A stretch of DNA of 19,494 bases, from IMG/VR virus record IMGVR_UViG_2534681658_000009. One strand, written 5' to 3'. Below the pieces are notes generated by a model that saw only the letters and a program-made list of their open reading frames with translations, made no database searches and was not told the origin of the DNA. Positions 2,410 to 19,494 of this stretch are shown here, one piece after another (position 1 is the first letter of the stretch; each line of letters opens with the position of its first letter). The position numbers and the translations under genes were made by a program. Origin of the DNA: a virus (Duplodnaviria > Heunggongvirae > Uroviricota > Caudoviricetes).

Positions 2410-2429
<20 letters not shown>

Positions 2430-3727: not shown

Positions 3728-3736
3728 GGGATGTTT

Positions 3737-4069: not shown

Positions 4070-4088
4070 CCTTACCCTTCATCACTAA

Positions 4089-4112: not shown

Positions 4113-4124
4113 CGGGATTTTTTT

Positions 4125-5150
4125 ATGTCGATGTACACAACCGCCCAGCTGCTGGCGGCAAATGAGAAGAAATTTAAGTTTGATCCGCTGTTTCTGCGTC
4201 TCTTTTTCCGTGAGAGCTATCCCTTCACCACGGAGAAAGTCTATCTCTCACAAATTCCGGGACTGGTAAACATGGCGCTGTACGTTTCGCCGATTGTTTC
4301 CGGTGAGGTTATCCGCTCCCGTGGCGGCTCCACCTCTGAATTTACACCGGGATATGTCAAGCCGAAGCATGAGGTGAATCCGCAGATGACCCTGCGTCGC
4401 CTGCCGGATGAAGATCCGCAGAATCTGGCGGACCCGGCTTACCGCCGCCGTCGCATCATCATGCAGAACATGCGAGACGAAGAGCTGGCCATTGCTCAGG
4501 TCGAAGAGATGCAGGCAGTTTCTGCCGTGCTTAAGGGCAAATACACCATGACCGGTGAAGCTTTCGATCCGGTTGAGGTGGATATGGGCCGCAGTGCGGC
4601 GAACAACATCACACAGTCCGGCGGCACGGAGTGGAGCAAGCGTGACAAGTCCACGTATGACCCGACCGACGATATCGAAGCCTATGCGCTGAACGCCAGC
4701 GGCGTGGTGAATATCATCGTGTTTGATCCGAAAGGCTGGGCGCTGTTCCGTTCCTTCAAAGCCGTCAAGGAGAAGCTGGATACCCGTCGCGGCTCTAATT
4801 CCGAGCTGGAGACAGCGGTAAAAGACCTGGGCGAAGCGGTGTCCTATAAGGGGATGTATGGCGATACGGCGATCGTCGTGTATTCCGGACAGTACGTGGA
4901 AAACGACGTCAAAAAGAACTTCCTTCCGGACAACACGATGGTGCTGGGGAACACTCAGGCACGCGGTCTGCGCACCTATGGCTGCATTCAGGATGCGGAC
5001 GCACAGCGCGAAGGTATTAACGCCTCTGCCCGCTACCCGAAAAACTGGGTGACCACCGGCGATCCGGCGCGTGAGTTCACCATGATTCAGTCAGCACCGC
5101 TGATGCTGCTGGCTGACCCTGATGCGTTCGTGTCCGTACAACTGGCGTAA
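4125..5150 (+). CDS. E: Major capsid protein gpE
   Basis: MSMYTTAQLLAANEKKFKFDPLFLRLFFRESYPFTTEKVYLSQIPGLVNMALYVSPIVSGEV... matches lambda gpE; 341 aa as in lambda. The track ORF begins at an upstream ATG (4098); homology supports 4125. Confidence 0.95.
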   Translation: MSMYTTAQLLAANEKKFKFDPLFLRLFFRESYPFTTEKVYLSQIPGLVNMALYVSPIVSGEVIRSRGGSTSEFTPGYVKPKHEVNPQMTLRRLPDEDPQNLADPAYRRRRIIMQNMRDEELAIAQVEEMQAVSAVLKGKYTMTGEAFDPVEVDMGRSAANNITQSGGTEWSKRDKSTYDPTDDIEAYALNASGVVNIIVFDPKGWALFRSFKAVKEKLDTRRGSNSELETAVKDLGEAVSYKGMYGDTAIVVYSGQYVENDVKKNFLPDNTMVLGNTQARGLRTYGCIQDADAQREGINASARYPKNWVTTGDPAREFTMIQSAPLMLLADPDAFVSVQLA

Positions 5151-5152
5151 TC

Positions 5153-5174
5153 ATGGCCCTTCGGGGCCATTTTC
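5153..5174 (+). terminator. Short hairpin after E (atggccc-ttcg-gggccat, then T-rich); probable retroregulatory or partial terminator
   Basis: Perfect 7-bp inverted repeat with a 4-nt loop immediately after the E stop codon. Confidence 0.35.
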
Positions 5175-5191
5175 TCTCTGTGGAGGAGTTC

Positions 5192-5587
5192 ATGACGAAA
5201 GATGAACTGATTGCCCGTCTTCAGGTGCTGGGTGAGCAACTGAACCGTGATGTCAGCCTGACGGGGACGAAAGAAGAACTGGTGCTCCGTGTGGCAGAGC
5301 TGGAAGAGGAGCTTGATGACACGGATGACGCTGCCGGTCAGGACACATCTGTCAGCCCGGAAAATGCGCTGACCGGACATGAAAATGAGGTGGTATCAGC
5401 GCAGCCGGATACCGTGATTGATACGGCTGCTCTGGTCACGGTCGTGGCACTGGTGACGCTGCATACTGATGCACTTCACGCCACGCGGGATGAGCCTGTG
5501 GCATTTGTGCTGCCGGGAACGGCGTTTCGTGTCTCTGCCGGTGTGGCAGCCGAAATGACAGAACATGGCCTGGCCAGAATGCAATAA
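5192..5587 (+). CDS. FI: DNA packaging / head assembly protein FI
   Basis: MTKDELIARLQVLGEQLNRDVSLTGTKEEL... matches lambda gpFI; ggagg RBS before ATG 5192; one codon shorter than lambda FI (131 vs 132 aa). Confidence 0.9.
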   Translation: MTKDELIARLQVLGEQLNRDVSLTGTKEELVLRVAELEEELDDTDDAAGQDTSVSPENALTGHENEVVSAQPDTVIDTAALVTVVALVTLHTDALHATRDEPVAFVLPGTAFRVSAGVAAEMTEHGLARMQ

Positions 5588-5598
5588 CGGGAGGCGCT

Positions 5599-5952
5599 GT
5601 GGCTGATTCCGATAACCTGTTCGATGCTGCCATTGCCCGCGCCGATGAAACGATACGCGGGTACATGGGAACGTCAGCCACCATGACATCCGGTGAGCAG
5701 TCAGGTGCGGTGATACGTGGTGTTTTTGATGACCCTGAAAATATCAGCTATGCCGGACAGGGCGTGCGCGTTGAAGGCTCCAGCCCGTCCCTGTTTGTCC
5801 GGACTGATGATGTGCGGCAGCTGCGGCGCGGCGACACGCTGACCATCGGTGAGGAAAACTTCTGGATAGACCGGATTTCGCCGGATGATGGCGGAAGCTG
5901 TCATCTCTGGCTTGGGCGGGGCGTACCGCCTGCCGTTAACCGTCGCCGCTGA
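5599..5952 (+). CDS. FII: Head completion / head-tail connector protein FII
   Basis: 117-aa ORF (GTG start) MADSDNLFDAAIARADETIRGYMGTSATMTSGEQSGAVIRGVFDDPENISYAGQGVRVEG... matches lambda gpFII. Confidence 0.92.
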   Translation: MADSDNLFDAAIARADETIRGYMGTSATMTSGEQSGAVIRGVFDDPENISYAGQGVRVEGSSPSLFVRTDDVRQLRRGDTLTIGEENFWIDRISPDDGGSCHLWLGRGVPPAVNRRR

Positions 5953-5963
5953 AAGGGGGATGT

Positions 5964-6542
5964 ATGGCCATAAAAGGTCTTGAGCAGGCCGTTGAAAACC
6001 TCAGCCGTATCAGCAGAACGGCGGTGCCCGGTGCCGCCGCAATGGCCATTAACCGCGTTGCTTCATCCGCGATATCGCAGTCGGTGGCACAGGTTGCCCG
6101 TGAGACAAAGGTACGCCGGAAACTGGTAAAGGAAAGGGCCAGGCTGAAAAGGGCCACGGTCAAAAATCCGCAGGCCAGAATCAGGGTTAACCGGGGGGAT
6201 TTGCCCGTAATCAAGCTGGGTAACGCGCGGGTTGTCCTTTCCCGCCGCAGACGTCGTAAAAAGGGGCAGCGTTCATCCCTGAAAGGTGGCGGCAGCGTGC
6301 TTGTGGTGGGAAACCGTCGTATTCCCGGCGCGTTTATTCAGCAACTGAAAAATGGCCGGTGGCATGTCATGCAGCGTGTGGCCGGGAAAAACCGTTACCC
6401 CATTGATGTGGTGAAAATCCCGATGGCGGTGCCGCTTACCACGGCGTTTAAACAGAATATTGAACGGATACGGCGTGAACGTCTTCCGAAAGAGCTGGGC
6501 TATGCGCTGCAGCATCAACTGAGGATAGTAATAAAGCGATGA
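5964..6542 (+). CDS. Z: Tail completion protein Z
   Basis: 192-aa ORF, same length as lambda gpZ and matching in sequence; stop overlaps U start. Confidence 0.92.
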   Translation: MAIKGLEQAVENLSRISRTAVPGAAAMAINRVASSAISQSVAQVARETKVRRKLVKERARLKRATVKNPQARIRVNRGDLPVIKLGNARVVLSRRRRRKKGQRSSLKGGGSVLVVGNRRIPGAFIQQLKNGRWHVMQRVAGKNRYPIDVVKIPMAVPLTTAFKQNIERIRRERLPKELGYALQHQLRIVIKR

Positions 6543-6934
6543 AACATACTGAACTCCGTGCAGCCGTACTGGATGCACTGGAGAAGCATGACACCGGGGC
6601 GACGCTTTTTGATGGTCGCCCCGCTGTTTTTGATGAGGCGGATTTTCCGGCAATTGCCGTTTATCTCACCGGCGCTGAATACACGGGCGAAGAGCTGGAC
6701 AGCGATACATGGCAGGCGGAGCTGCATATCGAAGTTTTCCTGCCTGCTCAGGTGCCGGATTCAGAGCTGGATTCGTGGATGGAGTCCCGGATTTATCCGG
6801 TGATGAGCGATGTCCCGGCACTGTCAGATTTGATCACCAGTATGGTGGCCAGTGGCTATGACTACCGGCGCGACGATGATGCGGGCCTGTGGAGTTCAGC
6901 CGATCTGACTTATGTCATTACCTATGAAATGTGA
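6539..6934 (+). CDS. U: Tail terminator protein U
   Basis: 131-aa [57 protein letters not shown]... matches lambda gpU. Confidence 0.93.
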
Positions 6935-6941
6935 GGACGAT

Positions 6942-7682
6942 ATGCCTGTACCAAATCCAGTAATGCCGGTGAAAGGGGCCGGGACCACACTGTGGGTTTA
7001 TAAGGGGAGCGGTGACCCTTATGCGAACCCGCTTTCAGACGTTGACTGGTCGCGTCTGGCAAAAGTTAAAGACCTGACGCCCGGCGAACTGACCGCTGAG
7101 TCCTATGACGACAGCTATCTCGATGATGAAGATGCAGACTGGACTGCGACCGGGCAGGGGCAGAAATCTGCCGGAGATACCAGCTTCACGCTGGCGTGGA
7201 TGCCCGGAGAGCAGGGGCAGCAGGCGCTGCTGGCGTGGTTTAATGAAGGGGATACCCGTGCCTATAAAATCCGCTTCCCGAACGGCACGGTCGATGTGTT
7301 CCGTGGCTGGGTCAGCAGTATCGGTAAGGCGGTGACGGCGAAGGAAGTGATCACCCGTACGGTGAAGGTCACCAATGTGGGCCGTCCGTCAATGGCAGAA
7401 GATCGCAGTACGGTGACGGCGGCAACCGGTATGACTGTGACGCCTGCCAGCTCCTCGGTGGTGAAAGGGCAGAGCACCACGCTGACCGTGGCATTCCAGC
7501 CGGAGGGTGCAACTGACAAGAGCTTCCGTGCGGTGTCAGCGGATAAAACAAAAGCCACCGTGTCGGTCAGTGGTATGACCATCACCGTGAATGGCGTTGC
7601 TGCAGGTAAGGTCAACATTCCGGTCGTATCCGGTAATGGTGAGTTTGCTGCGGTTGCAGAAATCACCGTCACCGCCAGTTAA
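6942..7682 (+). CDS. V: Major tail tube protein V, with C-terminal Ig-like (Big_2) domain
   Basis: [50 protein letters not shown]... matches lambda gpV (246 aa from ATG 6942; track ORF starts upstream at 6912). C-terminal ...[30 protein letters not shown]... is the Ig-like domain. Confidence 0.94.
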
Positions 7683-7697
7683 TCCGGAGAGTCAGCG

Positions 7698-8120
7698 ATG
7701 TTCCTGAAAACCGAATCATTTGAACATAACGGTGTGACCGTCACGCTTTCTGAACTGTCAGCCCTGCAGCGAATTGAGCATCTCGCCCTGCTGAAACGAC
7801 AGGCAGAACAGGCGGGATCCAGTCTCAATCGACAGGTGAGCGTGGAAGATCTCGTCAGAACCGGTGCTTTTCTGGTGGCGATGTCCCTGTGGCATAGCCA
7901 TCCGCAGAAGACAAAGATGCCGTCCATGAATGAAGCCGTTAAACAAATTGAGCAGGAAGTGCTTACCACCTGGCCCACAGAGGCAATTGCTCAGGCTGAA
8001 AATGTGGTAATGCGTCTGTCCGGTATGTCTGAGTTTGTTGTGAATGATGCACCTGAACAGGCAGATGACGCCGGGCCAGCAGAGCCTGTTTCTGCGGGAA
8101 AGTGTTCGACGGTGAGCTGA
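7698..8120 (+). CDS. G: Tail assembly chaperone G
   Basis: 140-aa ORF MFLKTESFEHNGVTVTLSELSALQRIEHLALLKRQAEQ... matches lambda gpG; ends shortly after the slippery heptamer. Confidence 0.94.
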   Translation: MFLKTESFEHNGVTVTLSELSALQRIEHLALLKRQAEQAGSSLNRQVSVEDLVRTGAFLVAMSLWHSHPQKTKMPSMNEAVKQIEQEVLTTWPTEAIAQAENVVMRLSGMSEFVVNDAPEQADDAGPAEPVSAGKCSTVS

Positions 8121-8536
8121 GTTTTGCCCTGAAACTGGCGCGTGAGATGGGGCGACCCGACTGGCGCGCCATGCTTGCCGGGATGTCATCCACGGAGTAT
8201 GCCGACTGGCACCGCTTTTACAGTACCCATTATTTTCATGATGTTCTGCTGGATATGCACTTTTCCGGGCTGACGTACACCGTGCTCAGCCTGTTTTTCA
8301 GCGATCCGGATATGCATCCGCTGGATTTCAGTCTGCTGAACCGGCGCGAGGCTGACGAAGAGCCTGAAGATGATGTGCTGATGCAGAAAGCGGCAGGGCT
8401 TGCCGGAGGTGTCCGCTTTGGCCCGGACGGGAATGAAGTTATCCCTACTTCCCCGGATGTGGCGGACATGACGGAGGATGACGTAATGCTGATGACAGTA
8501 TCAGAAGGGATCGCAGGAGGAGTCCGGTATGGCTGA
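7698..8536 (+). CDS. T: Tail assembly chaperone G-T fusion, made by programmed -1 ribosomal frameshift at 8096..8102 (T-frame portion 8102..8536)
   Basis: The -1 frame after GGGAAAG reads VFDGELSFALKLAREMGRPDWRAMLAGMSSTEYADWHRFY..., matching lambda gpT; the T frame has no independent start with an RBS. Confidence 0.88.
8096..8102 (+). other. Programmed -1 frameshift slippery heptamer G_GGA_AAG (G/T recoding site)
   Basis: Heptamer GGGAAAG is phased as X XXY YYZ in the G frame, 6 codons before the G stop. Confidence 0.85.
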
Positions 8537-11108
8537 ACCGGTAGGCGATCTGGTCGTTGATTTGAGTCTGGATGCGGCCAGATTTGACGAGCAGATGGCC
8601 AGAGTCAGGCGTCATTTTTCCGGTACGGAAAGTGATGCGAAAAAAACAGCGGCAGTCGTTGAACAGTCAATGAACCGGCAGGCGCTGGCTGCACAGAAAG
8701 CGGGGATTTCCGTCGGACAGTATAAAGCCGCCATGCGTATGCTGCCTGCACAGTTCACCGACGTGGCCACGCAGCTTGCAGGCGGGCAAAGTCCGTGGCT
8801 GATCCTGCTGCAACAGGGGGGTCAGGTGAAGGACTCCTTCGGCGGGATGATCCCCATGTTCCGGGGGCTTGCCGGTGCGATCACCCTGCCGATGGTGGGG
8901 GCCACCTCGCTGGCGGTGGCGACCGGTGCGCTGGCGTATGCCTGGTATCAGGGCAACTCAACCCTGTCCGATTTCAACAAAACGCTGGTCCTTTCCGGCA
9001 ATCAGGCGGGACTGACGGCAGATCGTATGCTGGTCCTGTCCAGAGCCGGGCAGGCGGCAGGGCTGACGTTTAACCAGACCAGCGAGTCACTGACGGCGCT
9101 GGTGAATGCCGGTGTGCGTGGTGGTGAGCAGTTTGAGGCGATCAGCCAGAGTGTGGCGCGTTTCTCCTCTGCATCCGGCGTGGAGGTGGACAAGGTCGCT
9201 GAAGCCTTCGGGAAGCTGACCACAGACCCGACGTCGGGACTGACAGCGATGGCACGTCAGTTCCATAACGTGACGGCGGAGCAGATTGCGTATGTTGCTC
9301 AGTTGCAGCGTTCCGGCGATGAAGCCGGGGCATTGCAGGCGGCGAACGAGGCCGCAACGAAAGGGTTTGATGACCAGACCCGCCGCCTGAAAGAGAACAT
9401 GGGCACGCTGGAGACCTGGGCAGACAGGACAGCACGGGCATTCAAATCCATGTGGGATTCGGTGCTGGATATTGGTCGCCCGGACACTGCCCAGGGAATG
9501 CTGGAGAAAGCAGAAAAGGCTTTTGATGAGGCGGACAAAAAATGGCAGTGGTATCAGAGCCGGAGCCACCGGCGCGGTAAAACCTCAGCATTTCGTGCCA
9601 ATCTCCGGGGAGCATGGGAGGACAGAGCGAATGCGCAACTTGGACTTTCAGCCGCCACGTTGCAGGCCGATCTTGAAAAGGCCAGAGAGATGGCAGCAAA
9701 GGACTGGGCCGAGTCTGAGGCATCACGGCTGAAATATACCGAAGAGGCGCAGAAGGCTTACGAACGGCTGCAGACGCCGCTGGAGAAATATACCGCCCGT
9801 CAGGAAGAACTGAACAAGGCACTGAAAGACGGGAAAATCCTGCAGGCGGATTACAACACGCTGATGGCGGCGGCGAAAAAGGATTATGAAGCGACGCTGA
9901 AAAAGCCGAAACAGTCCGGCGTGAAAGTGTCTGCGGGCGATCGTCAGGAAGACAGTGCTCATGCTGCCCTGCTGACGCTTCAGGCAGAACTCCGGACGCT
10001 GGAGAAGCATGCCGGAGCAAATGAGAAAATCAGCCAGCAGCGCCGGGATTTGTGGAAGGCGGAGAGTCAGTTCGCGGTACTGGAGGAGGCGGCGCAACGT
10101 CGCCAGCTATCCGCACAGGAGAAATCCCTGCTGGCGCATAAAGATGAGACGCTGGAGTACAAACGCCAGCTGGCTGCACTTGGCGACAAGGTTACGTATC
10201 AGGAGCGCCTGAACGCGCTGGCGCAGCAGGCGGATAAATTCGCACAGCAGCAACGGGCAAAACGGGCCGCCATTGATGCGAAAAGCCGGGGGCTGACTGA
10301 CCGGCAGGCAGCGCGGGAAGCCACAGAACAGCGCCTGAAGGAACAGTATGGCGATAATCCTCTGGCGCTGAATAACGTCATGTCAGAGCAGAAAAAGACC
10401 TGGGCGGCTGAAGACCAGCTTCGCGGGAACTGGATGGCAGGCCTGAAGTCCGGCTGGAGTGAGTGGGAAGAGAGCGCCACGGACAGTATGTCGCAGGTAA
10501 AAAGTGCAGCCGCGCAGACCTTTGATGGTATTGCACAGAATATGGCGGCGATGCTGACCGGCAGTGAGCAGAACTGGCGCAGCTTCACCCGTTCCGTGCT
10601 GTCCATGATGACAGAAATTCTGCTTAAGCAGGCAATGGTGGGGATTGTCGGGAGTATCGGCAGCGCCATTGGCGGAGCTGTTGGTGGCGGCGCATCCGCG
10701 TCAGGCGGTACAGCCATTCAGGCCGCTGCGGCGAAATTCCATTTTGCAACCGGAGGATTTACGGGAACCGGCGGCAAATATGAGCCAGCGGGGATTGTTC
10801 ACCGTGGTGAGTTTGTCTTCACGAAGGAGGCAACCAGCCGGATTGGCGTGGGGAATCTTTACCGGCTGATGCGCGGCTATGCCACCGGCGGTTATGTCGG
10901 TACACCGGGCAGCATGGCAGACAGCCGGTCGCAGGCGTCCGGGACGTTTGAGCAGAATAACCATGTGGTGATTAACAACGACGGCACGAACGGGCAGATA
11001 GGTCCGGCTGCTCTGAAGGCGGTGTATGACATGGCCCGCAAGGGTGCCCGTGATGAAATTCAGACACAGATGCGTGATGGTGGCCTGTTCTCCGGAGGTG
11101 GACGATGA
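8529..11108 (+). CDS. H: Tail tape measure protein H (859 aa)
   Basis: Intact 859-aa ORF; N-terminus MAEPVGDLVVDLSLDAARFDEQMARVRRHF and C-terminus ...QTQMRDGGLFSGGGR match lambda gpH; coiled-coil-rich middle and Gly-rich C-terminal segment; overlaps T stop and M start. Confidence 0.93.
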   Translation: MAEPVGDLVVDLSLDAARFDEQMARVRRHFSGTESDAKKTAAVVEQSMNRQALAAQKAGISVGQYKAAMRMLPAQFTDVATQLAGGQSPWLILLQQGGQVKDSFGGMIPMFRGLAGAITLPMVGATSLAVATGALAYAWYQGNSTLSDFNKTLVLSGNQAGLTADRMLVLSRAGQAAGLTFNQTSESLTALVNAGVRGGEQFEAISQSVARFSSASGVEVDKVAEAFGKLTTDPTSGLTAMARQFHNVTAEQIAYVAQLQRSGDEAGALQAANEAATKGFDDQTRRLKENMGTLETWADRTARAFKSMWDSVLDIGRPDTAQGMLEKAEKAFDEADKKWQWYQSRSHRRGKTSAFRANLRGAWEDRANAQLGLSAATLQADLEKAREMAAKDWAESEASRLKYTEEAQKAYERLQTPLEKYTARQEELNKALKDGKILQADYNTLMAAAKKDYEATLKKPKQSGVKVSAGDRQEDSAHAALLTLQAELRTLEKHAGANEKISQQRRDLWKAESQFAVLEEAAQRRQLSAQEKSLLAHKDETLEYKRQLAALGDKVTYQERLNALAQQADKFAQQQRAKRAAIDAKSRGLTDRQAAREATEQRLKEQYGDNPLALNNVMSEQKKTWAAEDQLRGNWMAGLKSGWSEWEESATDSMSQVKSAAAQTFDGIAQNMAAMLTGSEQNWRSFTRSVLSMMTEILLKQAMVGIVGSIGSAIGGAVGGGASASGGTAIQAAAAKFHFATGGFTGTGGKYEPAGIVHRGEFVFTKEATSRIGVGNLYRLMRGYATGGYVGTPGSMADSRSQASGTFEQNNHVVINNDGTNGQIGPAALKAVYDMARKGARDEIQTQMRDGGLFSGGGR

Positions 11109-11434
11109 AGACCTTCCGCTGGAAAGTGAAACCCGGTATGGATGTGGCTTCGGTCCCTTCTGTAAGAAAGGTGCGCTTTGGTGATGGCTATTCTCAGCGA
11201 GCGCCTGCCGGGCTGAATGCCAACCTGAAAACGTACAGCGTGACGCTTTCTGTCCCCCGTGAGGAGGCCACGGTACTGGAGTCGTTTCTGGAAGAGCACG
11301 GGGGCTGGAAATCCTTTCTGTGGACGCCGCCTTATGAGTGGCGGCAGATAAAGGTGACCTGCGCAAAATGGTCGTCGCGGGTCAGTATGCTGCGTGTTGA
11401 GTTCAGCGCAGAGTTTGAACAGGTGGTGAACTGA
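11105..11434 (+). CDS. M: Tail tip protein M
   Basis: 109-aa ORF MKTFRWKVKPGMDVASVPSVRKVRFGDGYSQRAPAGLNANLKTYSVTLSV... matches lambda gpM; ATGA overlaps with H and L. Confidence 0.94.
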   Translation: MKTFRWKVKPGMDVASVPSVRKVRFGDGYSQRAPAGLNANLKTYSVTLSVPREEATVLESFLEEHGGWKSFLWTPPYEWRQIKVTCAKWSSRVSMLRVEFSAEFEQVVN

Positions 11435-12107
11435 TGCAGGATATCCGGCAGGAAACACTGAATGAATGCACCCGTGCGGAGCAGTCGGCCAGCGTGGTGC
11501 TCTGGGAAATCGACCTGACAGAGGTCGGTGGAGAACGTTATTTTTTCTGTAATGAGCAGAACGAAAAAGGTGAGCCGGTCACCTGGCAGGGGCGCAGTAT
11601 CAGGTATCCCATTCAGGGGACGGTTTGAACTGAAGGCAAGGCATCCGCCACCTGACGGTTTCTAACCTGTACGGATGGTCACCGGGATGGCGGAAGATCT
11701 GCAGAGTCTGGTCGGCGGAACGGTGGTCCGGCGTAAGGTTTACGCCCGTTTTCTGGATGCGGTGAACTTCGTCAACGGAAACAGGAGCCGATCCGGAGCA
11801 GGAGGTGATCAGCCGCTGGCGCATGAGCAGTGCAGCGAACTGAGGCGGTAGTGCCTCTTTGTACTGTCCACGCCGACGGAAACGGAGGCGCTGTTTTTCC
11901 GGGACGTATCATGCTGGCCAACACCTGCACCTGGACCTATCGCGGTGATGAGTGCGGTTATCACGGTCCGGCGTCGCGGATGAATATGACCAGCCGACGT
12001 CCGATATCACGAAGGATAAATGCAGCAAATGCCTGAGCGGCTGTAAGTTTCGCAATAACGTCGGCAACTTTGGCGGCTTCCTTTCCATTAACAAACTTTC
12101 GCAGTAA
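11434..12107 (+). pseudogene. L: Tail tip protein L, disrupted by multiple frameshifts (or sequence errors)
   Basis: The first 64 codons match the lambda gpL N-terminus, then a stop at 11626..11628. Later gpL segments lie in other frames: MVTGMAEDLQSLVGGTVVRRKVYARFLDAVNFVNGN from 11675 (frame 2), GAVFPGRIMLANTCTWTYRGDECGY around 11890 (frame 1), DITKDKCSKCLSGCKFRNNVGNFGGFLSINKLSQ up to the stop at 12105..12107 (frame 0). The locus is 674 nt, not a multiple of 3. Confidence 0.8.
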
Positions 12108-12111
12108 TCCC

Positions 12112-12852
12112 ATGACACAGACAGAATCAGCGATTCTGGCGCACGCCCGGCGATGTGCGCCAGCGGAGTCGTGCGGCTTCGTGGTGAGAACGCCGGAGGG
12201 GGAAAGATATTTTCCCTGCGTGAATATCTCCGGTGAGCCGGAGGCGTATTTCCGGATGGCTCCGGAGGACTGGCTGCAGGCAGAGATGCAGGGTGAGATT
12301 GTGGCACTGGTCCACAGTCATCCCGGTGGTCTGCCCTGGCTGAGTGAGGCTGACCGGCGGCTGCAGGTGCAGAGTGATTTGCCGTGGTGGCTGGTCTGCC
12401 GGGGGGCGATTCACAAGTTCCGCTGTGTGCCGCATCTCACCGGGCGGCGCTTTGAGCACGGGGTGACGGACTGTTACACGCTGTTCCGGGATGCTTATCA
12501 TCTGGCGGGGATTGAGATGCCGGATTTTCATCGCGGGGATGACTGGTGGCGTCACGGTCAGAATCTCTATCTGGATAATCTGGAGGCCACAGGGCTGTAT
12601 CAGGTGCCGTTGTCACAGCGCAGCCGGGCGATGTGCTGCTGTGCTGTTTTGGTTCATCGGTGCCGAATCATGCCGCCATTTACTGCGGCGACGGTGAGCT
12701 GCTGCACCATATTCCTGAACAACTGAGTAAACGAGAGAGGTATACCGACAAATGGCAGCGACGCACACACTCCCTCTGGCGTCACCGGGCATGGCACGCA
12801 TCTGCCTTTACGGGGATTTCAACGATTTGGCCGCCGCATCGACCTTCGGTGA
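12112..12852 (+). pseudogene. K: Tail tip assembly protein K (JAMM/MPN plus NlpC/P60 domains), frameshifted in the C-terminal half
   Basis: MTQTESAILAHARRCAPAESCGFVV... with JAMM motif HSHPGGLPWLSEAD (12313..12354) and DCYTLF segment in frame 1. Homology moves to frame 0 after about 12620 (LLCCFGSSVPNHAAIYCGDGELLHHIPEQLSKRERYTDKWQRRTHSLWRHRAW) and shifts again near 12820. Confidence 0.8.
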
Positions 12853-13392
12853 AAACGGGGCGAAGCCATCCGGGCGCTGGCCATGCAGATCCCGGCGTTT
12901 CGTCAGAAACTGAGCGACGGCTGGTACAGGTACGCATTGCCGGGCGTGATGCAGGTGAAACCGAATTGTCTGCCCGTCTTAATGAGCCGCTGGCAAATGG
13001 TGCCGTGATCCAATCGTGCCGCGTCTGGCGGGAGCTAAAAGTGGCGGTGTGTTTCAGGTGGTGCTGGGGGCGGCGTTATTGCGGTGGCATGGTGGAACCC
13101 TGTGGGCTGGCTGGGTGCCGCGGCTGTATCGGGCATGTATGCGGCAGGGGCCAGTATGATCCTGGGCGGAGTGGCGCAGATGCTGGCACCGAAAGCCAGG
13201 ACGCCCACGGCAGCAAGTACAGATAACGGCAAACAGAACACCTATTTCTCCTCACTGGATAACATGGTTGCCCAGGGCAATGTTCTGCCTGTTCTGTACG
13301 GTGAAATGCGCGTGGGGTCACGCGTGGTTTCTCAGGAGATCAGCACGGCAGACGAAGGGGATGGTGGTCAGGTTGTGGTGATTGGTCGCTGA
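12752..13392 (+). pseudogene. I: Tail tip assembly protein I, disrupted by multiple frameshifts
   Basis: ATG 12752 gives MAATHTLPLASPGMARICLYGD (lambda gpI N-terminus, frame 2), stop after about 50 codons. VQVRIAGRD... continues in frame 0, and the C-terminal ...ILGGVAQMLAPKARTP...DNGKQNTYFSSLDNMVAQGNVLPVLYGEMRVGSRVVSQEISTADEGDGGQVVVIGR is in frame 1, ending at 13392. Confidence 0.8.
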
Positions 13393-13410
13393 TGCAAAAT
13401 GTTTTATGTG

Positions 13411-13436
13411 AAACCGCCTCCGGGCGGTTTTATCGT
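13411..13436 (+). terminator. Intergenic hairpin between I and J (aaaccgcc-tccg-ggcggttt, then T-rich)
   Basis: 8-bp inverted repeat with 4-nt loop followed by ttatcgtttat; may be a weak terminator or an RNA-stability element. Confidence 0.3.
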
Positions 13437-13452
13437 TTATGGAGCATGACGA

Positions 13453-16400
13453 ATGGGTAAAGGCAGCAGTAAGGGGCATACCCCGCGCGAAGCAAAGGAC
13501 AACCTGAAGTCCACGCAGTTGCTGAGTGTGATCGATGCCATCAGCGAAGGGCCGGTTGAAGGTCCGGTGGATGGATTAAAAAGCGTGCTGCTGAACAGTA
13601 CACCGGTGCTGGACAGTGAGGGGAATACTAACATCTCTGGTGTCACGGTGGTGTTCCGGGCAGGTGAGCAGGAACAGACACCGCCGGAGGGATTTGAATC
13701 CTCCGGCTCCGAGACGGTGCTGGGTACGGAAGTGAAATATGACACGCCGATCACCCGGACCATCACGTCTGCAAATATCGACCGTCTGCGCTTTACCTTC
13801 GGTGTGCAGGCACTGGTGGAAACCACCTCAAAGGGGGACAGGAATCCGTCGGAAGTCCGCCTGCTGGTTCAGATACAACGTAACGGTGGCTGGGTGACAG
13901 AAAAAGACATCACCATTAAGGGCAAAACCACTTCACAGTATCTGGCCTCGGTGGTGGTGGATAACCTGCCGCCGCGCCCGTTTAATATCCGGATGCGCAG
14001 AATGACGCCGGACAGCACCACAGACCAGCTGCAGAACAAAACGCTCTGGTCGTCATACACCGAAATTATCGATGTGAAACAGTGCTACCCGAACACGGCA
14101 CTGGTCGGCGTGCAGGTGGACTCGGAGCAGTTCGGCAGCCAGCAGGTGAGCCGTAATTATCATCTGCGCGGGCGCATTCTGCAGGTGCCGTCGAACTATA
14201 ACCCGCAGACGCGGCAATACAGCGGTATCTGGGACGGAACGTTTAAGCCAGCATACAGCAACAACATGGCCTGGTGTCTGTGGGATATGCTGACCCATCC
14301 GCGCTACGGCATGGGGAAACGTCTTGGTGCGGCAGATGTGGATAAATGGGCGCTGTATGTCATCGGCCAGTACTGCGACCAGTCGGTGCCGGACGGTTTT
14401 GGCGGCACGGAGCCGCGCATCACCTGTAATGCCTACCTGACCACGCAGCGTAAGGCGTGGGATGTGCTCAGTGATTTCTGCTCGGCGATGCGCTGTATGC
14501 CGGTATGGAACGGGCAGACGCTGACGTTCGTGCAGGACCGACCATCAGATAAGGTGTGGACCTATAACCGCAGTAATGTGGTGATGCCGGATGATGGCGC
14601 GCCGTTCCGCTACAGCTTCAGCGCCCTGAAGGACCGCCATAATGCCGTTGAGGTGAACTGGATTGACCCGAATAACGGCTGGGAGACGGCGACAGAGCTT
14701 GTTGAAGATACGCAGGCCATTGCCCGTTACGGTCGTAACGTCACGAAGATGATGCCTTTGGCTGTACCAGCCGGGGGCAGGCGCACCGCGCCGGGCTGTG
14801 GCTGATTAAAACGGAACTGCTGGAAACGCAGACCGTGGACTTCAGCGTGGGTGCGGAAGGGCTTCGCCATGTACCGGGGGATGTCATTGAAATCTGCGAT
14901 GATGACTATGCGGGTATCAGCACCGGTGGGCGCGTGCTGGCGGTGAACAGCCAGACCCGGACGCTGACGCTCGACCGTGAAATCACGCTGCCATCCTCCG
15001 GTACCACGCTGATAAGCCTGGTTGACGGAAGTGGAATCCGGTCAGCGTGGAGGTCAGTCCGTCACCGACGGCGTGAAGGTAAAGTGAGCCGTGTTCCTGA
15101 CGGCGTTGCGATACAGCGTGTGGGGGCTGAAGCTGCCGACGCTGCGCCAGCGCCTGTTCCGCTGCGTGAGTATCCGTGAGAACGATGACGGCACGTATGC
15201 CATCACCGCCGTGCAGCATGTACCGGAAAAAGAGGCCATCGTGGATAACGGGGCGCACTTTGACGGCGACCAGAGCGGCACGGTGAATGGTGTCACGCCG
15301 CCAGCAGTGCAGCATCTGACCGCCGAAGTCACCGCAGACAGCGGGGAGTATCAGGTACTGGCCCGCTGGGATACGCCGAAGGTGGTGAAGGGCGTGAGTT
15401 TCATGCTTCGCCTGACCGTGGCAGCGGATGACGGCAGTGAGCGGCTGGTCAGCACAGCCCGGACGGCGGAAACCACATACCGCTTCACACAACTGGCGCT
15501 GGGGAACTACAGGCTGACAGTCCGGGCAGTAAATGCGTGGGGGCAGCAGGGCGATCCGGCGTCGGTATCGTTCCGGATTGCCGCACCGGCAGCACCGTCG
15601 CGGATTGAGCTGACGCCGGGCTATTTTCAGATAACCGCAACGCCGCATCTTGCGGTTTATGACCCGACGGTACAGTTTGAGTTCTGGTTCTCGGAAAAAC
15701 GGATTGCGGATATCAGGCAGGTTGAAACCAGCGCGCGTTATCTTGGTACGGCACTGTACTGGATAGCCGCCAGTATCAATATCAAACCGGGCCATGATTA
15801 TTATTTTTACGTTCGCAGTGTGAACACCGTTGGCAAATCGGCATTCGTGGAGGCTGTCGGTCAGCCGAGTGATGATGCATCAGGCTATCTGGATTTTTTC
15901 AAAGGCGAGATAGGGAAAACCCATCTGGCTCAGGAGCTGTGGACGCAGATTGATAACGGTCAGCTTGCGCCTGACCTGACTGAAATCAGGACGTCCATAA
16001 CGGATGTCAGCAATGAAATAACACAGACCGTCAATAAGAAACTGGAAGACCAGAGTGCAGCGATCCAGCAGATACAGAAGGTTCAGGTTGATACAAATAA
16101 TAACCTGAACAGCATGTGGGCAGTGAAGCTGCAGCAGATGCAGGACGGACGCCTTTATATTGCGGGTATCGGTGCCGGTATTGAGAACACCCCTGACGGC
16201 ATGCAGAGTCAGGTGCTGCTGGCGGCGGACAGGATTGCGATGATTAATCCTGCAAATGGCAACACAAAACCGATGTTTGTTGGTCAGGGTGATCAGATAT
16301 TCATGAATGACGTGTTCCTGAAACGCCTGACGGCTCCCACCATTACCAGCGGTGGAAATCCGCCGGCATTTTCCCTGACACCGGACGGAAAGCTGACCGC

Positions 16401-16944
16401 TAAAAATGCGGATATCAGTGGCAGTGTGAATGCGAACGCCGGGACGCTCAACAATGTCACGGTAAATGAAAACTGTACGATTAAGGGCATGCTGGAGGCG
16501 ACTCAGGTCAGAGGTGACTTCGTTAAAGCTGTATCCAAATCATTCCCGAAACAGGCTGGTACGTGGGGTAATACGGAAACACCAAACGGGACGGTTACAG
16601 TCACCATCAGCGATGATCATAACTTTGACCGTCAAATCATTATTCCGCCCATTATCTTTAACGGAATAGCGTATAGCGATCCGGGAAGTGGTAATAACCC
16701 GGGAGGTACAAGATACACGGGTTATGGTTTTGAAGTTCGCAAAAACGGCGTATTAATCGCATCCAGAGAAACTAAAGGGGCCATTCCCGGTAGTTACAGT
16801 GCAGTTATTGATATGCCGAGTGGCAGGGGAAGCGTCACTCTGGAGTTTAAGATTTTCCAGAAAGGCAATCAGGGGGCAGGCAATATCACCGACTGTACGG
16901 TGATTGTGACCAAAAAAGCCGCTTCCGGCATCAGTATTCGTTGA
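13453..16944 (+). pseudogene. J: Tail tip attachment protein / central tail fibre J, interrupted by frameshifts near 14750 and 15040..15120; the 3' 617 codons are intact
   Basis: Three consecutive ORFs in frames 1, 0, 1 (13453..14805, 14835..15179, 15091..16944) each carry successive gpJ-like sequence: MGKGSSKGHTPREAKDNLKSTQLLSVIDAISEGPVEGPVDG..., then ...AFGCTSRGQAHRAGLWLIKTELLETQTVDFSVGAEGLRHVPGDVIEICDDDYAGISTGG..., then [42 protein letters not shown]... to the stop. Confidence 0.85.
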
Positions 16945-16966
16945 AATATTTATAACCCCAATAAAG

Positions 16967-16992
16967 GGCGTCAGGAATGACGCCTTTTTTAT
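16967..16992 (+). terminator. Rho-independent terminator downstream of J
   Basis: ggcgtca-ggaa-tgacgcc stem-loop followed by tttttt att, 22 nt after the J stop. Confidence 0.7.
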
Positions 16993-17014
16993 TGCAGAAA
17001 AGCGAGAGGTAATT

Positions 17015-17614
17015 ATGCGTAAAGTTTGTGCAGCAATTTTGTCCGCAGCCATTTGTCTGGCCGTATCCGGTGCGCCTGCATGGGCGTCTGAACATCAGTC
17101 CACGCTGAGCGCGGGGTATCTTCATGCCTCGACGAACGTCCCCGGCAGTGATGATCTGAACGGGATTAACGTGAAATACCGTTATGAGTTTACGGACACA
17201 CTGGGGCTGGTGACGTCATTCAGCTATGCAGGAGACAAGAATCGCCAGCTGACCCGTTACAGCGATACCCGCTGGCATGAAGATTCCGTTCGTAACCGCT
17301 GGTTCAGCGTAATGGCGGGGCCGTCTGTGCGCGTGAATGAATGGTTCAGCGCGTATGCGATGGCGGGTGTGGCTTACAGCCGTGTGTCGACTTTCTCCGG
17401 GGATTATCTCCGCGTAACTGACAACAAGGGGAAAACGCACGACGTGCTGACCGGAAGTGATGACGGTCGCCACAGCAACACGTCTCTGGCGTGGGGGGCT
17501 GGCGTGCAGTTTAACCCGACCGAATCCGTGGCCGTTGATGTCGCTTATGAAGGCTCCGGCAGTGGCAACTGGCGCACTGACGGTTTCATCGTGGGTGTTG
17601 GTTATAAGTTCTGA
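17015..17614 (+). CDS. lom: Outer-membrane beta-barrel protein Lom (Ail/Lom/OmpX family), a lysogenic-conversion moron
   Basis: 199-aa ORF with signal peptide MRKVCAAILSAAICLAVSGAPAWA and C-terminal ...GFIVGVGYKF (terminal Phe typical of outer-membrane beta-barrels); matches lambda Lom; gagagg RBS; own terminators on both sides. Confidence 0.93.
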   Translation: MRKVCAAILSAAICLAVSGAPAWASEHQSTLSAGYLHASTNVPGSDDLNGINVKYRYEFTDTLGLVTSFSYAGDKNRQLTRYSDTRWHEDSVRNRWFSVMAGPSVRVNEWFSAYAMAGVAYSRVSTFSGDYLRVTDNKGKTHDVLTGSDDGRHSNTSLAWGAGVQFNPTESVAVDVAYEGSGSGNWRTDGFIVGVGYKF

Positions 17615-17641
17615 TTAGCCAGGTAACACAGTGTTATGACA

Positions 17642-17668
17642 GCCCGCCGGTTCAGGCGGGCTTTTTTG
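17642..17668 (+). terminator. Rho-independent terminator downstream of lom
   Basis: gcccgcc-ggttcag-gcgggc stem-loop followed by tttttt. Confidence 0.7.
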
Positions 17669-17678
17669 TGGGGTGAAT

Positions 17679-19494
17679 ATGGCAGTAAAGATTTCAGGTG
17701 TACTGAAAGACGGTGCAGGTAAACCGGTACAGAACTGTACAATCCAGCTGAAAGCAAAACGTAACAGCACCACGGTGGTGGCGAACACGGTGGCCTCAGA
17801 AAATCCGGATGAAGCCGGGCGTTACAGCATGGACGTTGAGTACGGTCAGTACAGCGTTATTCTGTTGGTGGAAGGCTTCCCGCCATCGCATGCCGGGACC
17901 ATCACCGTGTATGAAGACTCACAACCGGGTACGCTGAATGATTTTCTCGGTGCCATGACGGAGGATGATGTCCGTCCGGAGGCACTGCGCCGCTTTGAAC
18001 TGATGGTGGAAGAGGTGGCGCGTAACGCGTCCGCGGTGGCACAGAACACGGCAGCCGCGAAGAAGTCAGCCAGCGATGCCGGCACATCAGCCCGTGAGGC
18101 GGCAACCCATGCGACTGATGCTACAGGCTCAGCACGGCAGCCAGCACTCAGCCGGCAGGCCGCGCGTCGGCTCAGTCAGCTCTTCCAGCGCAGGAACGGC
18201 ATCAACAAAGGCCATGAAGCATCAAAAGTGCTGCGCTGCAGAGTCCTCAAAAAGCGCGGCAGCTACCAGTGCCGTGCGGCGAAAACGTCAGAAACGAATG
18301 CGGCAGCGTCACAAAATCGCAGCCACTTCTGCATCCGCCGCGACCACGAAGCGTCAGAAGCGCCACCTCAGCCCGGGATGCGGCGGCCTCAAAAGAGGCA
18401 GCGAAATCATCAGAAACGAACGCATCATCAAGCGCCAGTAGTGCCGCTTCCTCGGCAACGGCGGCAGGCAATTCCGCGAAGGCGGCAAAAACGTCGAGAC
18501 AACGCCAGGTCTTCTGAAACGGCAGCGGGACAGAGCGCCTCAGCTGCGGCAGGCTCAAAAACAGCGGCTGCGTCGTCTGCCAGTGCCGCATCAACAAGTG
18601 CCGGGCAGGCCTCAGCCAGTGCCACCGCTGCCGGAAAGTCGGCAGAAAGTGCCGCATCGTCTGCTTCAACAGCCACAACGAAGGCTGGCGAAGCCACTGA
18701 ACAGGCCAGCGCAGCAGCGAGGTCAGCTTCCGCAGCGAAGACATCCGAAACGAACGCGAAAGCGTCGGAAACCCGTGCAGAATCCTCAAAAACGGCTGCC
18801 GCATCGTCAGCCAGTTCGGCGGCGTCATCGGCATCATCGGCGTCTGCTTCAAAAGATGAGGCGACCATACAGGCGTCAGCAGCGAAGGGCAGCGCCACGA
18901 CGGCATCCACGAAGGCGACAGAGGCTGCTGGTAGTGCGACGGCAGCAGCTCAGAGCAAAAGTACGGCGGAATCTGCAGCAACGCGCGCTGAGACAGCGGC
19001 AAAACGGGCAGAGGATATTGCATCCGCCGTGGCGCTTGAGGATGCGAGCACGACGAAAAAGGGGATAGTACAGCTCAGTAGTGCGACTAACAGCACGTCT
19101 GAAACGCTGGCGGCAACGCCAAAGGCAGTAAAATCAGCCTATGACAATGCAGAGAAACGTCTGCAGAAAGACCAGAACGGCGCTGATATACCCGATAAGG
19201 GACGCTTCCTGAACAACATTAACGCGGTCAGTAAAACAGACTTTGCTGATAAGCGTGGTATGCGTTATGTGCGGGTTAACGCTCCTGCAGGTGCAACATC
19301 TGGAAAATATTACCCTGTTGTTGTTATGCGTTCTGCTGGCTCAGTAAGCGAACTGGCATCAAGGGTCATTATCACCACGGCAACGCGAACCGCAGGCGAT
19401 CCGATGAATAACTGCGAGTTTAACGGATTTGTTATGCCTGGTGGCTGGACTGACAGGGGGCGTTATGCTTATGGAATGTTCTGGCAATATCAAA
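17679..19494 (+). CDS. stf: Side tail fibre protein Stf, N-terminal 605 codons (3' end outside the window); an internal stretch of about 18110..18520 is frame-scrambled
   Basis: ATG 17679 gives MAVKISGVLKDGAGKPVQNCTIQLKAKRNSTTVVANTVASENPDEAGRYSMDVEYGQYSVILLVEGFPPSHAGTITVYEDSQPGTLNDFL..., matching the lambda Stf N-terminus. Frame 0 stays open to the window end, which is why the ORF is missing from the stop-delimited track. Downstream Ala/Ser/Thr-rich repeats and the KGIVQLSSATNSTSETLAATPKAVK motif are in frame. Confidence 0.8.
   Translation, partial: MAVKISGVLKDGAGKPVQNCTIQLKAKRNSTTVVANTVASENPDEAGRYSMDVEYGQYSVILLVEGFPPSHAGTITVYEDSQPGTLNDFLGAMTEDDVRPEALRRFELMVEEVARNASAVAQNTAAAKKSASDAGTSAREAATHATDATGSARQPALSRQAARRLSQLFQRRNGINKGHEASKVLRCRVLKKRGSYQCRAAKTSETNAAASQNRSHFCIRRDHEASEAPPQPGMRRPQKRQRNHQKRTHHQAPVVPLPRQRRQAIPRRRQKRRDNARSSETAAGQSASAAAGSKTAAASSASAASTSAGQASASATAAGKSAESAASSASTATTKAGEATEQASAAARSASAAKTSETNAKASETRAESSKTAAASSASSAASSASSASASKDEATIQASAAKGSATTASTKATEAAGSATAAAQSKSTAESAATRAETAAKRAEDIASAVALEDASTTKKGIVQLSSATNSTSETLAATPKAVKSAYDNAEKRLQKDQNGADIPDKGRFLNNINAVSKTDFADKRGMRYVRVNAPAGATSGKYYPVVVMRSAGSVSELASRVIITTATRTAGDPMNNCEFNGFVMPGGWTDRGRYAYGMFWQYQ
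18050..18960 (+). repeat. Low-complexity Ala/Ser/Thr-rich coding repeats of the Stf shaft
   Basis: Reiterated GCN/TCN/ACN codon runs encoding variants of SAAASSA / AAKTSETNA; they give stop-free ORFs in all frames on both strands. Confidence 0.7.

What the first reader, a model, noticed from the sequence alone, without database searches (positions are those of the whole stretch)
19110..19494. Mosaic junction in stf after the conserved ...LAATPKAVK motif
After KGIVQLSSATNSTSETLAATPKAVK the sequence reads SAYDNAEKRLQKDQNGADIPDKGRFLNNINAVSKTDFADKRGMRYVRVNAPAGATSGKYYPVVVMRSAGSVSELASRVIITTATRTAGDPMNNCEFNGFVMPGGWTDRGRYAYGMFWQYQ. This does not resemble the lambda Stf continuation as I remember it and looks like the distal receptor-binding portion of a different tail fibre family. 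Tail fibres are known to recombine just downstream of this conserved motif, so the host-surface target of this fibre probably differs from that of lambda Stf. Nucleotide composition also becomes more AT-rich from about 19200.
Basis: partly seen in the sequence, partly recalled or inferred. Interest (0 to 1): 0.45.

Follow-up and report, generated by a model that had tools for sequence, protein, structure and literature searches.

The report
Known StfR-type tail fibre junction
The break in similarity to phage lambda's side tail fibre is real, but what follows is the long-known Rac-prophage (StfR) version of the gene, and the stretch in the window is the start of a middle shaft section, not the receptor-binding tip.

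Summary
The stf reading frame starts at 17679. The motif KGIVQLSSATNSTSETLAATPKAVK ends at 19133, and the quoted 120 residues follow it exactly. Nucleotide identity to lambda stf is 83% up to 19132 and 35% after it. BLASTP finds no colinearity with lambda Stf. GC3 falls from about 0.6 to 0.44.

The continuation is not new. It matches E. coli K-12 Rac prophage StfR (b1372) at 119 of 120 residues. It is at least 99% identical in 1,364 complete E. coli records and 100% identical in phage PhiR34_1.

Full-length relatives (1,120-1,134 aa) show what the segment is. It opens a roughly 418-aa central cassette: a Mu S-like linker, an unannotated beta-sandwich domain, a gp34-trimer-like domain and an S'-like domain. 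This cassette replaces about 144 aa of lambda Stf. After it, the protein returns to a lambda/T4-gp37-type tip (71% identical to lambda), and its Tfa chaperone is 95% identical to lambda's. Specificity most likely lies in a hypervariable head of about 70 aa, some 400 residues past the window end. The same central cassette occurs with different heads.

The window is a whole draft contig that ends inside stf, so this genome's tip cannot be read. Verdict: already known, low interest.

The parts
17679..19494 (+). 5' part (605 codons) of a lambda-type side tail fibre gene stf, StfR (Rac prophage) allele, cut by the end of the contig
   Evidence: ORF and translation. It lies downstream of J and lom. 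96-98% nt identity over its whole length to stf of phage PhiR34_1 and to E. coli 'stfR' genes. The window is the whole contig AQDL01000023.1, 19,494 bp.
17679..18080 (+). N-terminal virion-attachment domain (Prophage tail fibre N-terminal, PF08400)
   Evidence: Pfam PF08400, E 8e-74, aa 1-134. The relative's residues 3-96 match lambda Stf N-terminal structures 9e7m/9mgh, E 2e-51.
18081..19046 (+). Ala/Ser-rich repetitive shaft region, colinear with lambda Stf; GC-rich because of GCN codons (GC2 0.81)
   Evidence: BLASTP of the relative against lambda Stf gives 76% identity over this part.
18136..18500 (+). Patch of 14 small deletions (15 nt in all) relative to every relative. Residues about 153-275 are read out of frame, but the ORF stays open. 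Probably a sequence-quality artefact of the draft assembly.
   Evidence: Pairwise alignments. All full-length E. coli hits span 1,910 nt against 1,895 in the window. A 51-mer across two of the deletions is absent from the viral, genome and metagenome collections.
19047..19169 (+). Phage_fiber_2 repeat (PF03406) containing KGIVQLSSATNSTSETLAATPKAVK (nt 19059-19133). This is the conserved patch shared by lambda, Mu S and the other alleles.
   Evidence: Pfam, E 5e-22. Aligned to Mu S residues 97-172. Duplicated in PhiR68_2 and P0067.
19131..19133 (+). Junction with lambda stf: last codon (K485) of shared sequence
   Evidence: Alignment A2. Identity is 82.8% before and 34.7% after.
19134..19226 (+). 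Linker SAYDNAEKRLQKDQNGADIPDKGRFLNNINA, homologous to the end of the constant part of phage Mu tail fibre S (...KIAMDNANARLAKDRNGADIPNKPLFIQNLGL). Nt 19206-19226 (FLNNINA) occupy the position of the Mu gix crossover site (FIQNLGL), but the site sequence is not conserved.
   Evidence: PDB 5yvq/8ju3 alignments. The Mu G-segment boundary falls in S codon 170. The gix core AAACCTCGGTTT lies at that place in Mu. There is no such core in the window at up to 2 mismatches within 19100-19494. Other alleles branch at 19193 and 19222.
19248..19494 (+). First ~82 residues of a conserved all-beta domain of about 165 aa (consensus APAGAxAGKYYPV...DPMNNCxFNGxVRxGGWSDRG...ERAIHSI...YVExRAFP), cut by the contig end. 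It is an internal tail-fibre domain with no Pfam or NCBIfam model.

Best explanation
The window carries the 5' 605 codons of a lambda-type side tail fibre gene of the StfR (Rac prophage) allele class. Such genes are at least three-part mosaics. Part 1 is a lambda-like N-terminal attachment domain plus an Ala/Ser-rich shaft, ending in the conserved Phage_fiber_2 repeat ...LAATPKAVK. Part 2 is a central cassette of about 418 aa that replaces about 144 aa of lambda Stf. It holds a 31-residue linker like the end of Mu S-constant, an unannotated beta-sandwich domain of about 165 aa, a gp34-trimer/Mu-S-like domain and an S'-like domain. Part 3 is a lambda/T4-gp37-type collar and needle tip that is folded by a lambda-like Tfa. 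The finding marks the left boundary of the central cassette. The window ends 120 residues into it because the draft contig stops there. The junction most likely arose, and keeps being reshuffled, by homologous recombination between prophages and phages within the conserved patches on either side of the cassette (the PF03406 repeat on the left, the YPVGAPIPWPSD collar on the right). The cassette itself is inferred to change the length and architecture of the shaft. Receptor choice is inferred to lie in the hypervariable head of the tip, about 400-470 residues beyond the window. Shown here: the junction, the allele identity, the domain order in relatives, and the independent variation of the head. 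Inferred: the recombination mechanism and the division of labour between shaft and tip.
For: The junction lies at 19131-19133. The post-junction 120 aa match K-12 StfR aa 491-610 at 119/120, and 265/269 residues are identical across the junction. The segment is 100% identical to PhiR34_1 over 19095-19494, against 3.8% divergence upstream; the chance of no mismatch in 400 nt at that rate is about 1e-7. The segment is at least 99% identical in 1,364 E. coli records and occurs in 1,585 of 5,426 genomes, while the upstream part matches in 5,008 genomes. Domain map of the full-length relative: PF08400 3-136, Mu S-like 443-523, PF21446 Gp34_trimer 665-764, S'-like 815-909, and gp37 tip 2xgf 903-1134 at E 5e-85. 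Against lambda Stf the N part is colinear, the tip is 71% identical and 486-903 shows no similarity. Tfa is 95% identical to lambda Tfa. K-12 StfR and PhiR34_1 Stf are 98-100% identical everywhere except aa about 1005-1075, where identity is 44%. Other alleles (PhiR29_1, PhiR68_2, P0124, P0136, P0164) combine different central pieces with the same tip family. GC3 is 0.41-0.44 in the cassette and tip against 0.61-0.68 in the rest of the virion module. De Paepe et al. 2014 (PMC3945230) obtained lambda x Rac recombinants across stf-tfa; 12 sequenced recombinants were all different hybrids, with no hotspot.
Against: The 3' part of this particular gene is not on the contig, so the presence of a gp37-type tip in this genome is extrapolated from relatives. 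No receptor or adsorption data exist for StfR-type fibres in what I could search. The beta-sandwich domain has no known function and could in principle bind a surface glycan itself. The stf copy in the window has 15 nt of deletions upstream (18136-18500). If these are real rather than sequencing errors, the fibre would have a garbled shaft.
Confidence: 0.85

Rival explanations
1. One reading: the post-motif segment is the distal, receptor-binding part of a different fibre family, so this fibre targets a different host-surface molecule from lambda Stf (OmpC).
Against: The segment sits at aa 486-610 of about 1,130 and is followed by about 300 more residues of cassette and then a 230-aa gp37/lambda-type tip. 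The Tfa chaperone is lambda-like. The same cassette occurs with different heads, and different cassettes occur with the same tip family. The fold matches are weak, and Foldseek finds no PDB match at E <= 0.001.
Confidence: 0.1
2. The cassette boundary was created by Gin/Cin/Pin-type site-specific inversion or exchange, as in Mu, P1 and e14, and the locus is (or recently was) an invertible fibre switch.
For: The linker after the motif is homologous to the end of Mu S-constant. The allele-specific sequence begins (19193-19222) where Mu has its gix site, in S codon 170. A PinQ/PinR-type serine recombinase lies just downstream of stf-tfa in Rac, PhiR34_1 and PhiR68_2. De Paepe et al. 2014 cite Sandmeier 1994 for invertase-driven exchange of fibre genes.
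Against: The crossover core AAACCNNGGTTT is found only at the two Mu G boundaries. It is found in none of the StfR-type loci, and not in the window at up to 2 mismatches near the junction. Those loci carry no inverted alternative stf-C/tfa pair. The only inverted repeat touching the linker (21 nt, 76% complementary, second arm inside tfa) is at chance level. The break with lambda lies 29 codons upstream of the gix-equivalent position.
Confidence: 0.08
3. The junction is an artefact: a chimeric join or misassembly near the end of a low-quality draft contig.
For: The window is a draft contig that ends inside a multi-copy gene. It carries four patches of small deletions that look like read errors.
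Against: The identical join, with 100% identical downstream sequence, is present in isolated phages and in more than 1,300 complete genomes. None of the deletions lies within 19095-19494.
Confidence: 0.01

Closest known systems
E. coli K-12 Rac prophage side tail fibre StfR (b1372, NP_415890.2; 1,120 aa), with TfaR and PinR
   Same: 265/269 residues are identical across the junction, and 119/120 after it. Rac has the gene order lom-stf-tfa-pin-ynaE, and so does the closest phage, PhiR34_1. PGAP labels the matching genes 'stfR'.
   Different: The upstream part differs by 4.7% at the nt level. The window copy is truncated by the contig end and has 15 nt of deletions in the Ala-rich region. The tip head of this genome's copy is unknown; K-12 and PhiR34_1 heads differ.
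Phage lambda (Ur-lambda) side tail fibre Stf (774 aa) and Tfa
   Same: The N-terminal PF08400 domain, the Ala-rich shaft and the PF03406 motif (about 83-86% nt identity up to 19132). In relatives, the gp37-like tip (71% aa) and Tfa (95% aa).
   Different: Lambda residues about 386-529 are replaced by an unrelated cassette of about 418 aa. The Ala-rich part is about 100 aa longer. The tip head differs.
Phage Mu tail fibre S/S' (PDB 5yvq, 9ki1, 8ju3) and the G-segment inversion system
   Same: The motif and the following linker align to Mu S 97-172. StfR-type 710-778 aligns to Mu S 268-336 and 812-903 to S' 321-411. The allele-specific part starts at the gix-equivalent position.
   Different: The attachment domain is lambda-type rather than Mu baseplate-type. 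There is no crossover site and no inverted alternative module. The tip is gp37-type, not the Mu S C-terminal domain.
T4 long tail fibre proteins gp34 (PF21446 Gp34_trimer; 4uxe, 5nxf, 9x3r) and gp37 tip (2xgf)
   Same: Relatives carry a Gp34_trimer-like domain (E 3e-27) and a gp37 needle tip (E 5e-85).
   Different: Neither domain lies inside the window. The in-window beta-sandwich domain has no match in gp34 or gp37 structures.

Membership tests
Lambda-type side tail fibre (Stf) | N-terminal 'Prophage tail fibre N-terminal' domain (PF08400) | tested here: met
   Window aa 1-134, E 8e-74.
Lambda-type side tail fibre (Stf) | Gene position directly downstream of J and lom in a lambda-like virion module | tested here: met
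   ORF map and called genes with Pfam labels. The whole window is 97% identical to lambdoid phage PhiR34_1.
Lambda-type side tail fibre (Stf) | Colinearity with lambda Stf beyond the ...ATPKAVK motif (lambda residues about 386-529) | tested here: not met
   34.7% nt identity after 19133. BLASTP best E 0.63 and not colinear. No HSP for 486-903 of the relative.
Lambda-type side tail fibre (Stf) | gp37-like C-terminal tip and a cognate Tfa chaperone gene downstream | not testable with these tools
   The contig ends at 19494. The feature is met in all close full-length relatives examined.
StfR (Rac prophage) allele of Stf | Near-identity to K-12 StfR across and after the motif | tested here: met
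   265/269 overall and 119/120 after the junction. 3 nt mismatches in 361.
StfR (Rac prophage) allele of Stf | Full central cassette (Gp34_trimer-like and S'-like domains) following the in-window segment | not testable with these tools
   Beyond the contig end. Present in PhiR34_1, Ec-U11, K-12 and many database proteins.
Invertible Gin/Cin/Pin-controlled tail fibre (Mu S, P1 S, e14) | Crossover sites (core AAACCNNGGTTT) at the constant/variable boundary | tested here: not met
   None in the window near the junction at up to 2 mismatches. None in any StfR-type locus, while both Mu sites are found.
Invertible Gin/Cin/Pin-controlled tail fibre (Mu S, P1 S, e14) | Alternative variable fibre part plus chaperone on the opposite strand, and an adjacent invertase | tested here: not met
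   Relatives have the invertase (pinR type) but no inverted second stf-C/tfa set. The one inverted repeat found is at chance level. Not testable in the window itself.
T4 gp37-type receptor-binding tip | Sequence match to the collar/needle/head domains (2xgf; PF07484, PF03335) | tested here: not met
   For the in-window segment there is no such hit. The 2xgf match lies at 903-1134 of relatives only.

The most novel reading that the evidence does not exclude
The conserved beta-sandwich domain of about 165 aa that begins in the window (aa ~528 onward) has no Pfam or NCBIfam model and no solved relative. It could be a lateral ligand-binding (for example glycan-binding) module on the fibre shaft. 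StfR-type fibres would then have a second binding specificity that is independent of the gp37-like tip.
Probability: 0.1. Interest if true: 0.4.

Novelty: already known. Interest (0 to 1): 0.12.

Why it matters
It matters little for discovery. The allele is that of a K-12 gene annotated for decades and is present in about 29% of complete E. coli genomes. Mosaicism of tail fibre genes around this motif has been described since 1992; De Paepe et al. 2014 cite Haggard-Ljungquist 1992 and Sandmeier 1992/1994. The practical value is for annotation and engineering. The ...ATPKAVK motif is a natural splice point. What follows it in StfR-type genes is shaft, not receptor-binding tip, so host-range predictions should use the tip head and Tfa. 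A side benefit is the delineation of a widespread tail-fibre domain that has no family model.

Tried and rejected
1. I tried to recover the rest of the gene from the source. Exact 51-mer searches in the viral, genome and metagenome collections found nothing. The look-up of encoding contigs showed that the window is the entire 19,494-bp contig, so the 3' part cannot be reached.

2. The search for homologous proteins with only the 120 in-window residues returned short fragments only. A query with the whole cassette was needed.

3. My first lambda alignment used wrong coordinates and was meaningless; it was redone. The full-length lambda imm21 stf translation is frameshifted in that record, so I used its annotated 682-aa CDS.

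4. A strict 26-nt invertase-site pattern was mis-specified and missed even Mu. I replaced it with the 12-nt core, which finds both Mu sites and nothing else.

5. An inverted repeat joining the NGADIPDK-coding stretch to the 3' end of tfa (21 nt, 76%) was considered as a relic inversion site. I rejected it as a chance match: a 10-nt seed is expected about 15 times in 5.7 kb, and the second arm is ordinary tfa coding sequence that is conserved in lambda.

7. NCBIfam has no model for the protein.

8. The original Haggard-Ljungquist 1992 paper is not held.

9. I tested the idea that the GC drop merely reflects leaving the Ala-rich region. This is only partly so: GC2 explains the peak, but GC3 also drops.
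Full report
**What is in the sequence.** The window is a lambda-like virion module: terminase end, portal, capsid, tail, J, lom. The last gene starts at 17679 (MAVKISGVLKDG...) and stays open to the last base, giving 605 codons. Its first 134 residues are a PF08400 'prophage tail fibre N-terminal' domain (E 8e-74). An Ala/Ser-rich stretch follows, then a PF03406 Phage_fiber_2 repeat that holds KGIVQLSSATNSTSETLAATPKAVK (nt 19059-19133).

**Is the junction real?** Yes.
- Against lambda stf, nucleotide identity is 193/233 (82.8%) over 18900-19132 and 50/144 (34.7%) over 19133-19260. The break falls in the codon after ...GCAACGCCAAAGGCAGTAAA.
- Megablast hits to lambda-type records stop at window 19126-19132.
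- BLASTP of the 120 residues against lambda Stf gives nothing colinear (best E 0.63). The result that would have refuted the finding is therefore not obtained.
- The composition change is also real. GC falls from about 0.6 to about 0.5. Part of the preceding high GC comes from alanine codons (GC2 0.81), but GC3 also falls: 0.61 in the N-domain, 0.54 in the Ala-rich part, 0.44 after the junction and 0.41 over the whole cassette in relatives. Portal, E, H and lom have 0.62-0.68.

**What the continuation is.** It is not unfamiliar sequence.
- It matches E. coli K-12 Rac prophage StfR (b1372) at 119/120 residues, and at 265/269 across the junction.
- The 358 nt after the junction occur in 1,585 of 5,426 complete E. 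coli genomes, and 1,364 records are at least 99% identical. PGAP names many of these genes stfR.
- They occur with 100% identity in isolated lambdoid phages such as PhiR34_1, Kati, Chlobot and mEp332.
- The upstream part of stf matches in 5,008 genomes, so many genomes share the 5' part with a different continuation.
- Divergence from PhiR34_1 is 3.8% up to 19094 and zero over the last 400 nt. The chance of that at a uniform rate is about 1e-7. This is the signature of a separately exchanged, recently spread module.

**Where the segment sits in the protein.** Full-length relatives are PhiR34_1 (1,132 aa from MAVK), Ec-U11 (1,132 aa) and K-12 StfR (1,120 aa). They show this order:

| Residues | Feature | Evidence |
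|---|---|---|
| 3-136 | PF08400 N-terminal domain | matches lambda Stf structures 9e7m/9mgh |
| about 140-455 | Ala-rich shaft | colinear with lambda Stf |
| 443-523 | motif plus linker | aligns to Mu tail fibre S 97-172 |
| 665-764 | Gp34_trimer domain (PF21446) | also aligns to Mu S 268-336 |
| about 812-909 | S'-like domain | aligns to 8ju3 321-411 |
| 903-1134 | T4 gp37 collar/needle tip | 2xgf, E 5e-85 |

Against lambda Stf the N part is colinear, residues 486-903 have no counterpart, and 904-1132 are 71% identical to lambda 530-774. The downstream Tfa is 95% identical to lambda Tfa. The finding therefore marks the left edge of an internal cassette of about 418 aa that replaces about 144 aa of lambda Stf. 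The fibre then returns to a lambda-type tip. The window holds only the first 120 residues of the cassette.

**Fine structure after the motif.** The first 31 residues (SAYDNAEKRLQKDQNGADIPDKGRFLNNINA, nt 19134-19226) are homologous to the end of the constant part of Mu S (KIAMDNANARLAKDRNGADIPNKPLFIQNLGL).
- In Mu the G-segment boundary lies in S codon 170. The gix core AAACCTCGGTTT encodes part of IQNLGL.
- The equivalent window residues are FLNNINA (19206-19226).
- Other lambdoid stf alleles leave the window sequence at 19145, 19193 (after NGADIP) and 19222. The allele-specific part thus begins at the gix-equivalent place.
- A pinR-type invertase follows stf-tfa in Rac, PhiR34_1 and PhiR68_2.
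- However, the crossover core is absent from the window (at up to 2 mismatches near the junction) and from every StfR-type locus fetched, while both Mu sites are recovered. There is no inverted alternative fibre/chaperone set. The single inverted repeat touching the linker is at chance level.

I read this as an old relationship to the Mu/P1-type invertible fibres, not a working switch.

**The domain that starts in the window.** From about aa 524 (nt 19248) a conserved domain of about 165 aa begins (MRYVRVNAPAGATSGKYYPVVV...).
- A full scan of 1.84 billion representative proteins finds it in 147 clusters, mostly large proteins of 450-2,700 aa at 35-47% identity. The seven I scanned against Pfam carry tail-fibre hallmarks elsewhere (Peptidase_S74, gp37_trimer, Gp34_trimer, Phage_tail_fib) or no hit, and none has a family over this domain.
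- Pfam and NCBIfam have no model for it in the StfR-type protein either. PHROGs hits are 'tail fiber protein' or unknown.
- An AlphaFold model from a 13-sequence alignment is confident (pLDDT 82, pTM 0.84) and all-beta.
- In BFVD it matches internal parts of tail fibre proteins of phages JenK1, Vibrio phi 3, Aeromonas pAh6-C and phiAS4 'gp37'.
- Its function is unknown. By position I take it to be a shaft or knob domain.

**Where specificity most likely lies.**
- K-12 StfR and PhiR34_1 Stf are 98-100% identical in every 50-residue block except about 1005-1075, the head of the gp37-like needle, where identity drops to 44%.
- PhiR29_1, P0124, P0136, P0133 and P0164 combine other central pieces, or diverged copies (64-79%) of the same cassette, with the same tip family and further head variants.

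Cassette and head assort independently. That fits the established view that the gp37-type tip head, folded by Tfa, makes the receptor contact; Ur-lambda Stf binding OmpC is summarised in 10.1101/2022.09.30.509847. A different receptor for this fibre is possible, but it cannot be deduced from the flagged segment.

**Mechanism of the mosaic.** Conserved patches flank the cassette: the PF03406 repeat, sometimes duplicated, on the left, and YPVGAPIPWPSD... on the right. De Paepe et al. 2014 (PMC3945230) showed experimentally that lambda recombines with Rac across stf-tfa by relaxed homologous recombination. Their 12 sequenced recombinants were 12 different hybrids. I therefore favour homologous exchange between co-resident prophages and infecting phages, with the invertase ancestry as background.

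**Quality of the window.** The window is the complete draft contig AQDL01000023.1 of GCA_000354995.2 and ends inside stf. This is expected for a gene present in up to five copies per genome. Relative to PhiR34_1 it has 45 indel events, 44 of them deletions, clustered in patches at 11594-12105, 12615-13135, 14750-15109 and 18136-18500, plus one at 3304. These break L, K, I and J into fragments.
- In stf, 15 nt are lost in 14 events. Residues about 153-275 are out of frame, but because the sequence is T-poor and the losses sum to a multiple of three, the ORF remains open.
- No complete E. coli genome shares these deletions.
- The patchy pattern points to poor read stretches rather than gene decay.
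- None of the deletions lies in 19095-19494, so the finding itself is unaffected.

**Verdict.** The junction and the composition shift are real, and the zone is a genuine recombination boundary. The continuation, however, is the well-known StfR allele. It is the beginning of a middle cassette, not the receptor-binding end. Novelty: already known. Interest: low (0.12). The only mildly new item is the delineation of a widespread, unmodelled beta-sandwich tail-fibre domain.

Noticed in passing
window 11594-12105, 12615-13135, 14750-15109, 18136-18500 and 3304: There are 45 indel events relative to the 97%-identical phage PhiR34_1, 44 of them deletions, mostly 1-3 nt and clustered in patches. They fragment tail genes L, K, I and J and scramble stf residues ~153-275 while leaving that ORF open. 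No complete E. coli genome shares them. They look like low-quality stretches of a draft assembly rather than prophage decay.
   Followed up: partly
window 1-19494: The window is an entire contig (AQDL01000023.1, GCA_000354995.2), which ends inside stf. The contig probably breaks there because the StfR cassette is present in up to five copies per genome.
   Followed up: yes
window 19248-19494 and L003:23228-23730 (approx.): A conserved all-beta tail-fibre domain of about 165 aa (APAGAxAGKYYPV...DPMNNCxFNG...GGWSDRG...ERAIHSI...YVExRAFP) has no Pfam or NCBIfam model and no solved homologue. It occurs in 147 clusters (50% identity) of large phage fibre proteins, including Vibrio and Aeromonas phages.
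   Followed up: partly
L003:25715-26305, L005:8085-8675, L007:7324-7914: A PinQ/PinR-type serine invertase sits directly downstream of stf-tfa in Rac and in free-living lambdoid phages. No crossover-site core and no invertible alternative fibre segment were found in these loci, so it appears to be an orphan invertase.
   Followed up: partly
protein P0154 (492 aa, ENA): This predicted protein joins a J-like N-terminal part directly to ...KGRFLNNINAVSK of the StfR cassette, at the module boundary, and ends out of frame. It is a deletion or an assembly chimera whose junction coincides with the allele-specific boundary.
   Followed up: no
L007:3574-6651 (PhiR68_2) and protein P0067: Some alleles carry two tandem copies of the KGI[VI]QLSSATNSTSE[ST]LAATPKAVK repeat separated by AAYDLA[SN]GKYTAQDATTAQ. 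This gives extra homology patches for unequal exchange.
   Followed up: no
proteins P0124, P0133, P0136, P0164: Many database 'tail fiber protein' entries of 620-680 aa begin MALEDASTTKKG... or, in P0136, MVQLSSATNS..., that is at internal start codons inside stf just before or within the motif. This suggests frequent split or truncated stf annotations in E. coli prophages.
   Followed up: no
L009:3580-6973 (PhiR30_1): The stf of this isolated phage is annotated as three separate CDS pieces, so its side tail fibre gene appears interrupted, as in lambda PaPa.
   Followed up: no
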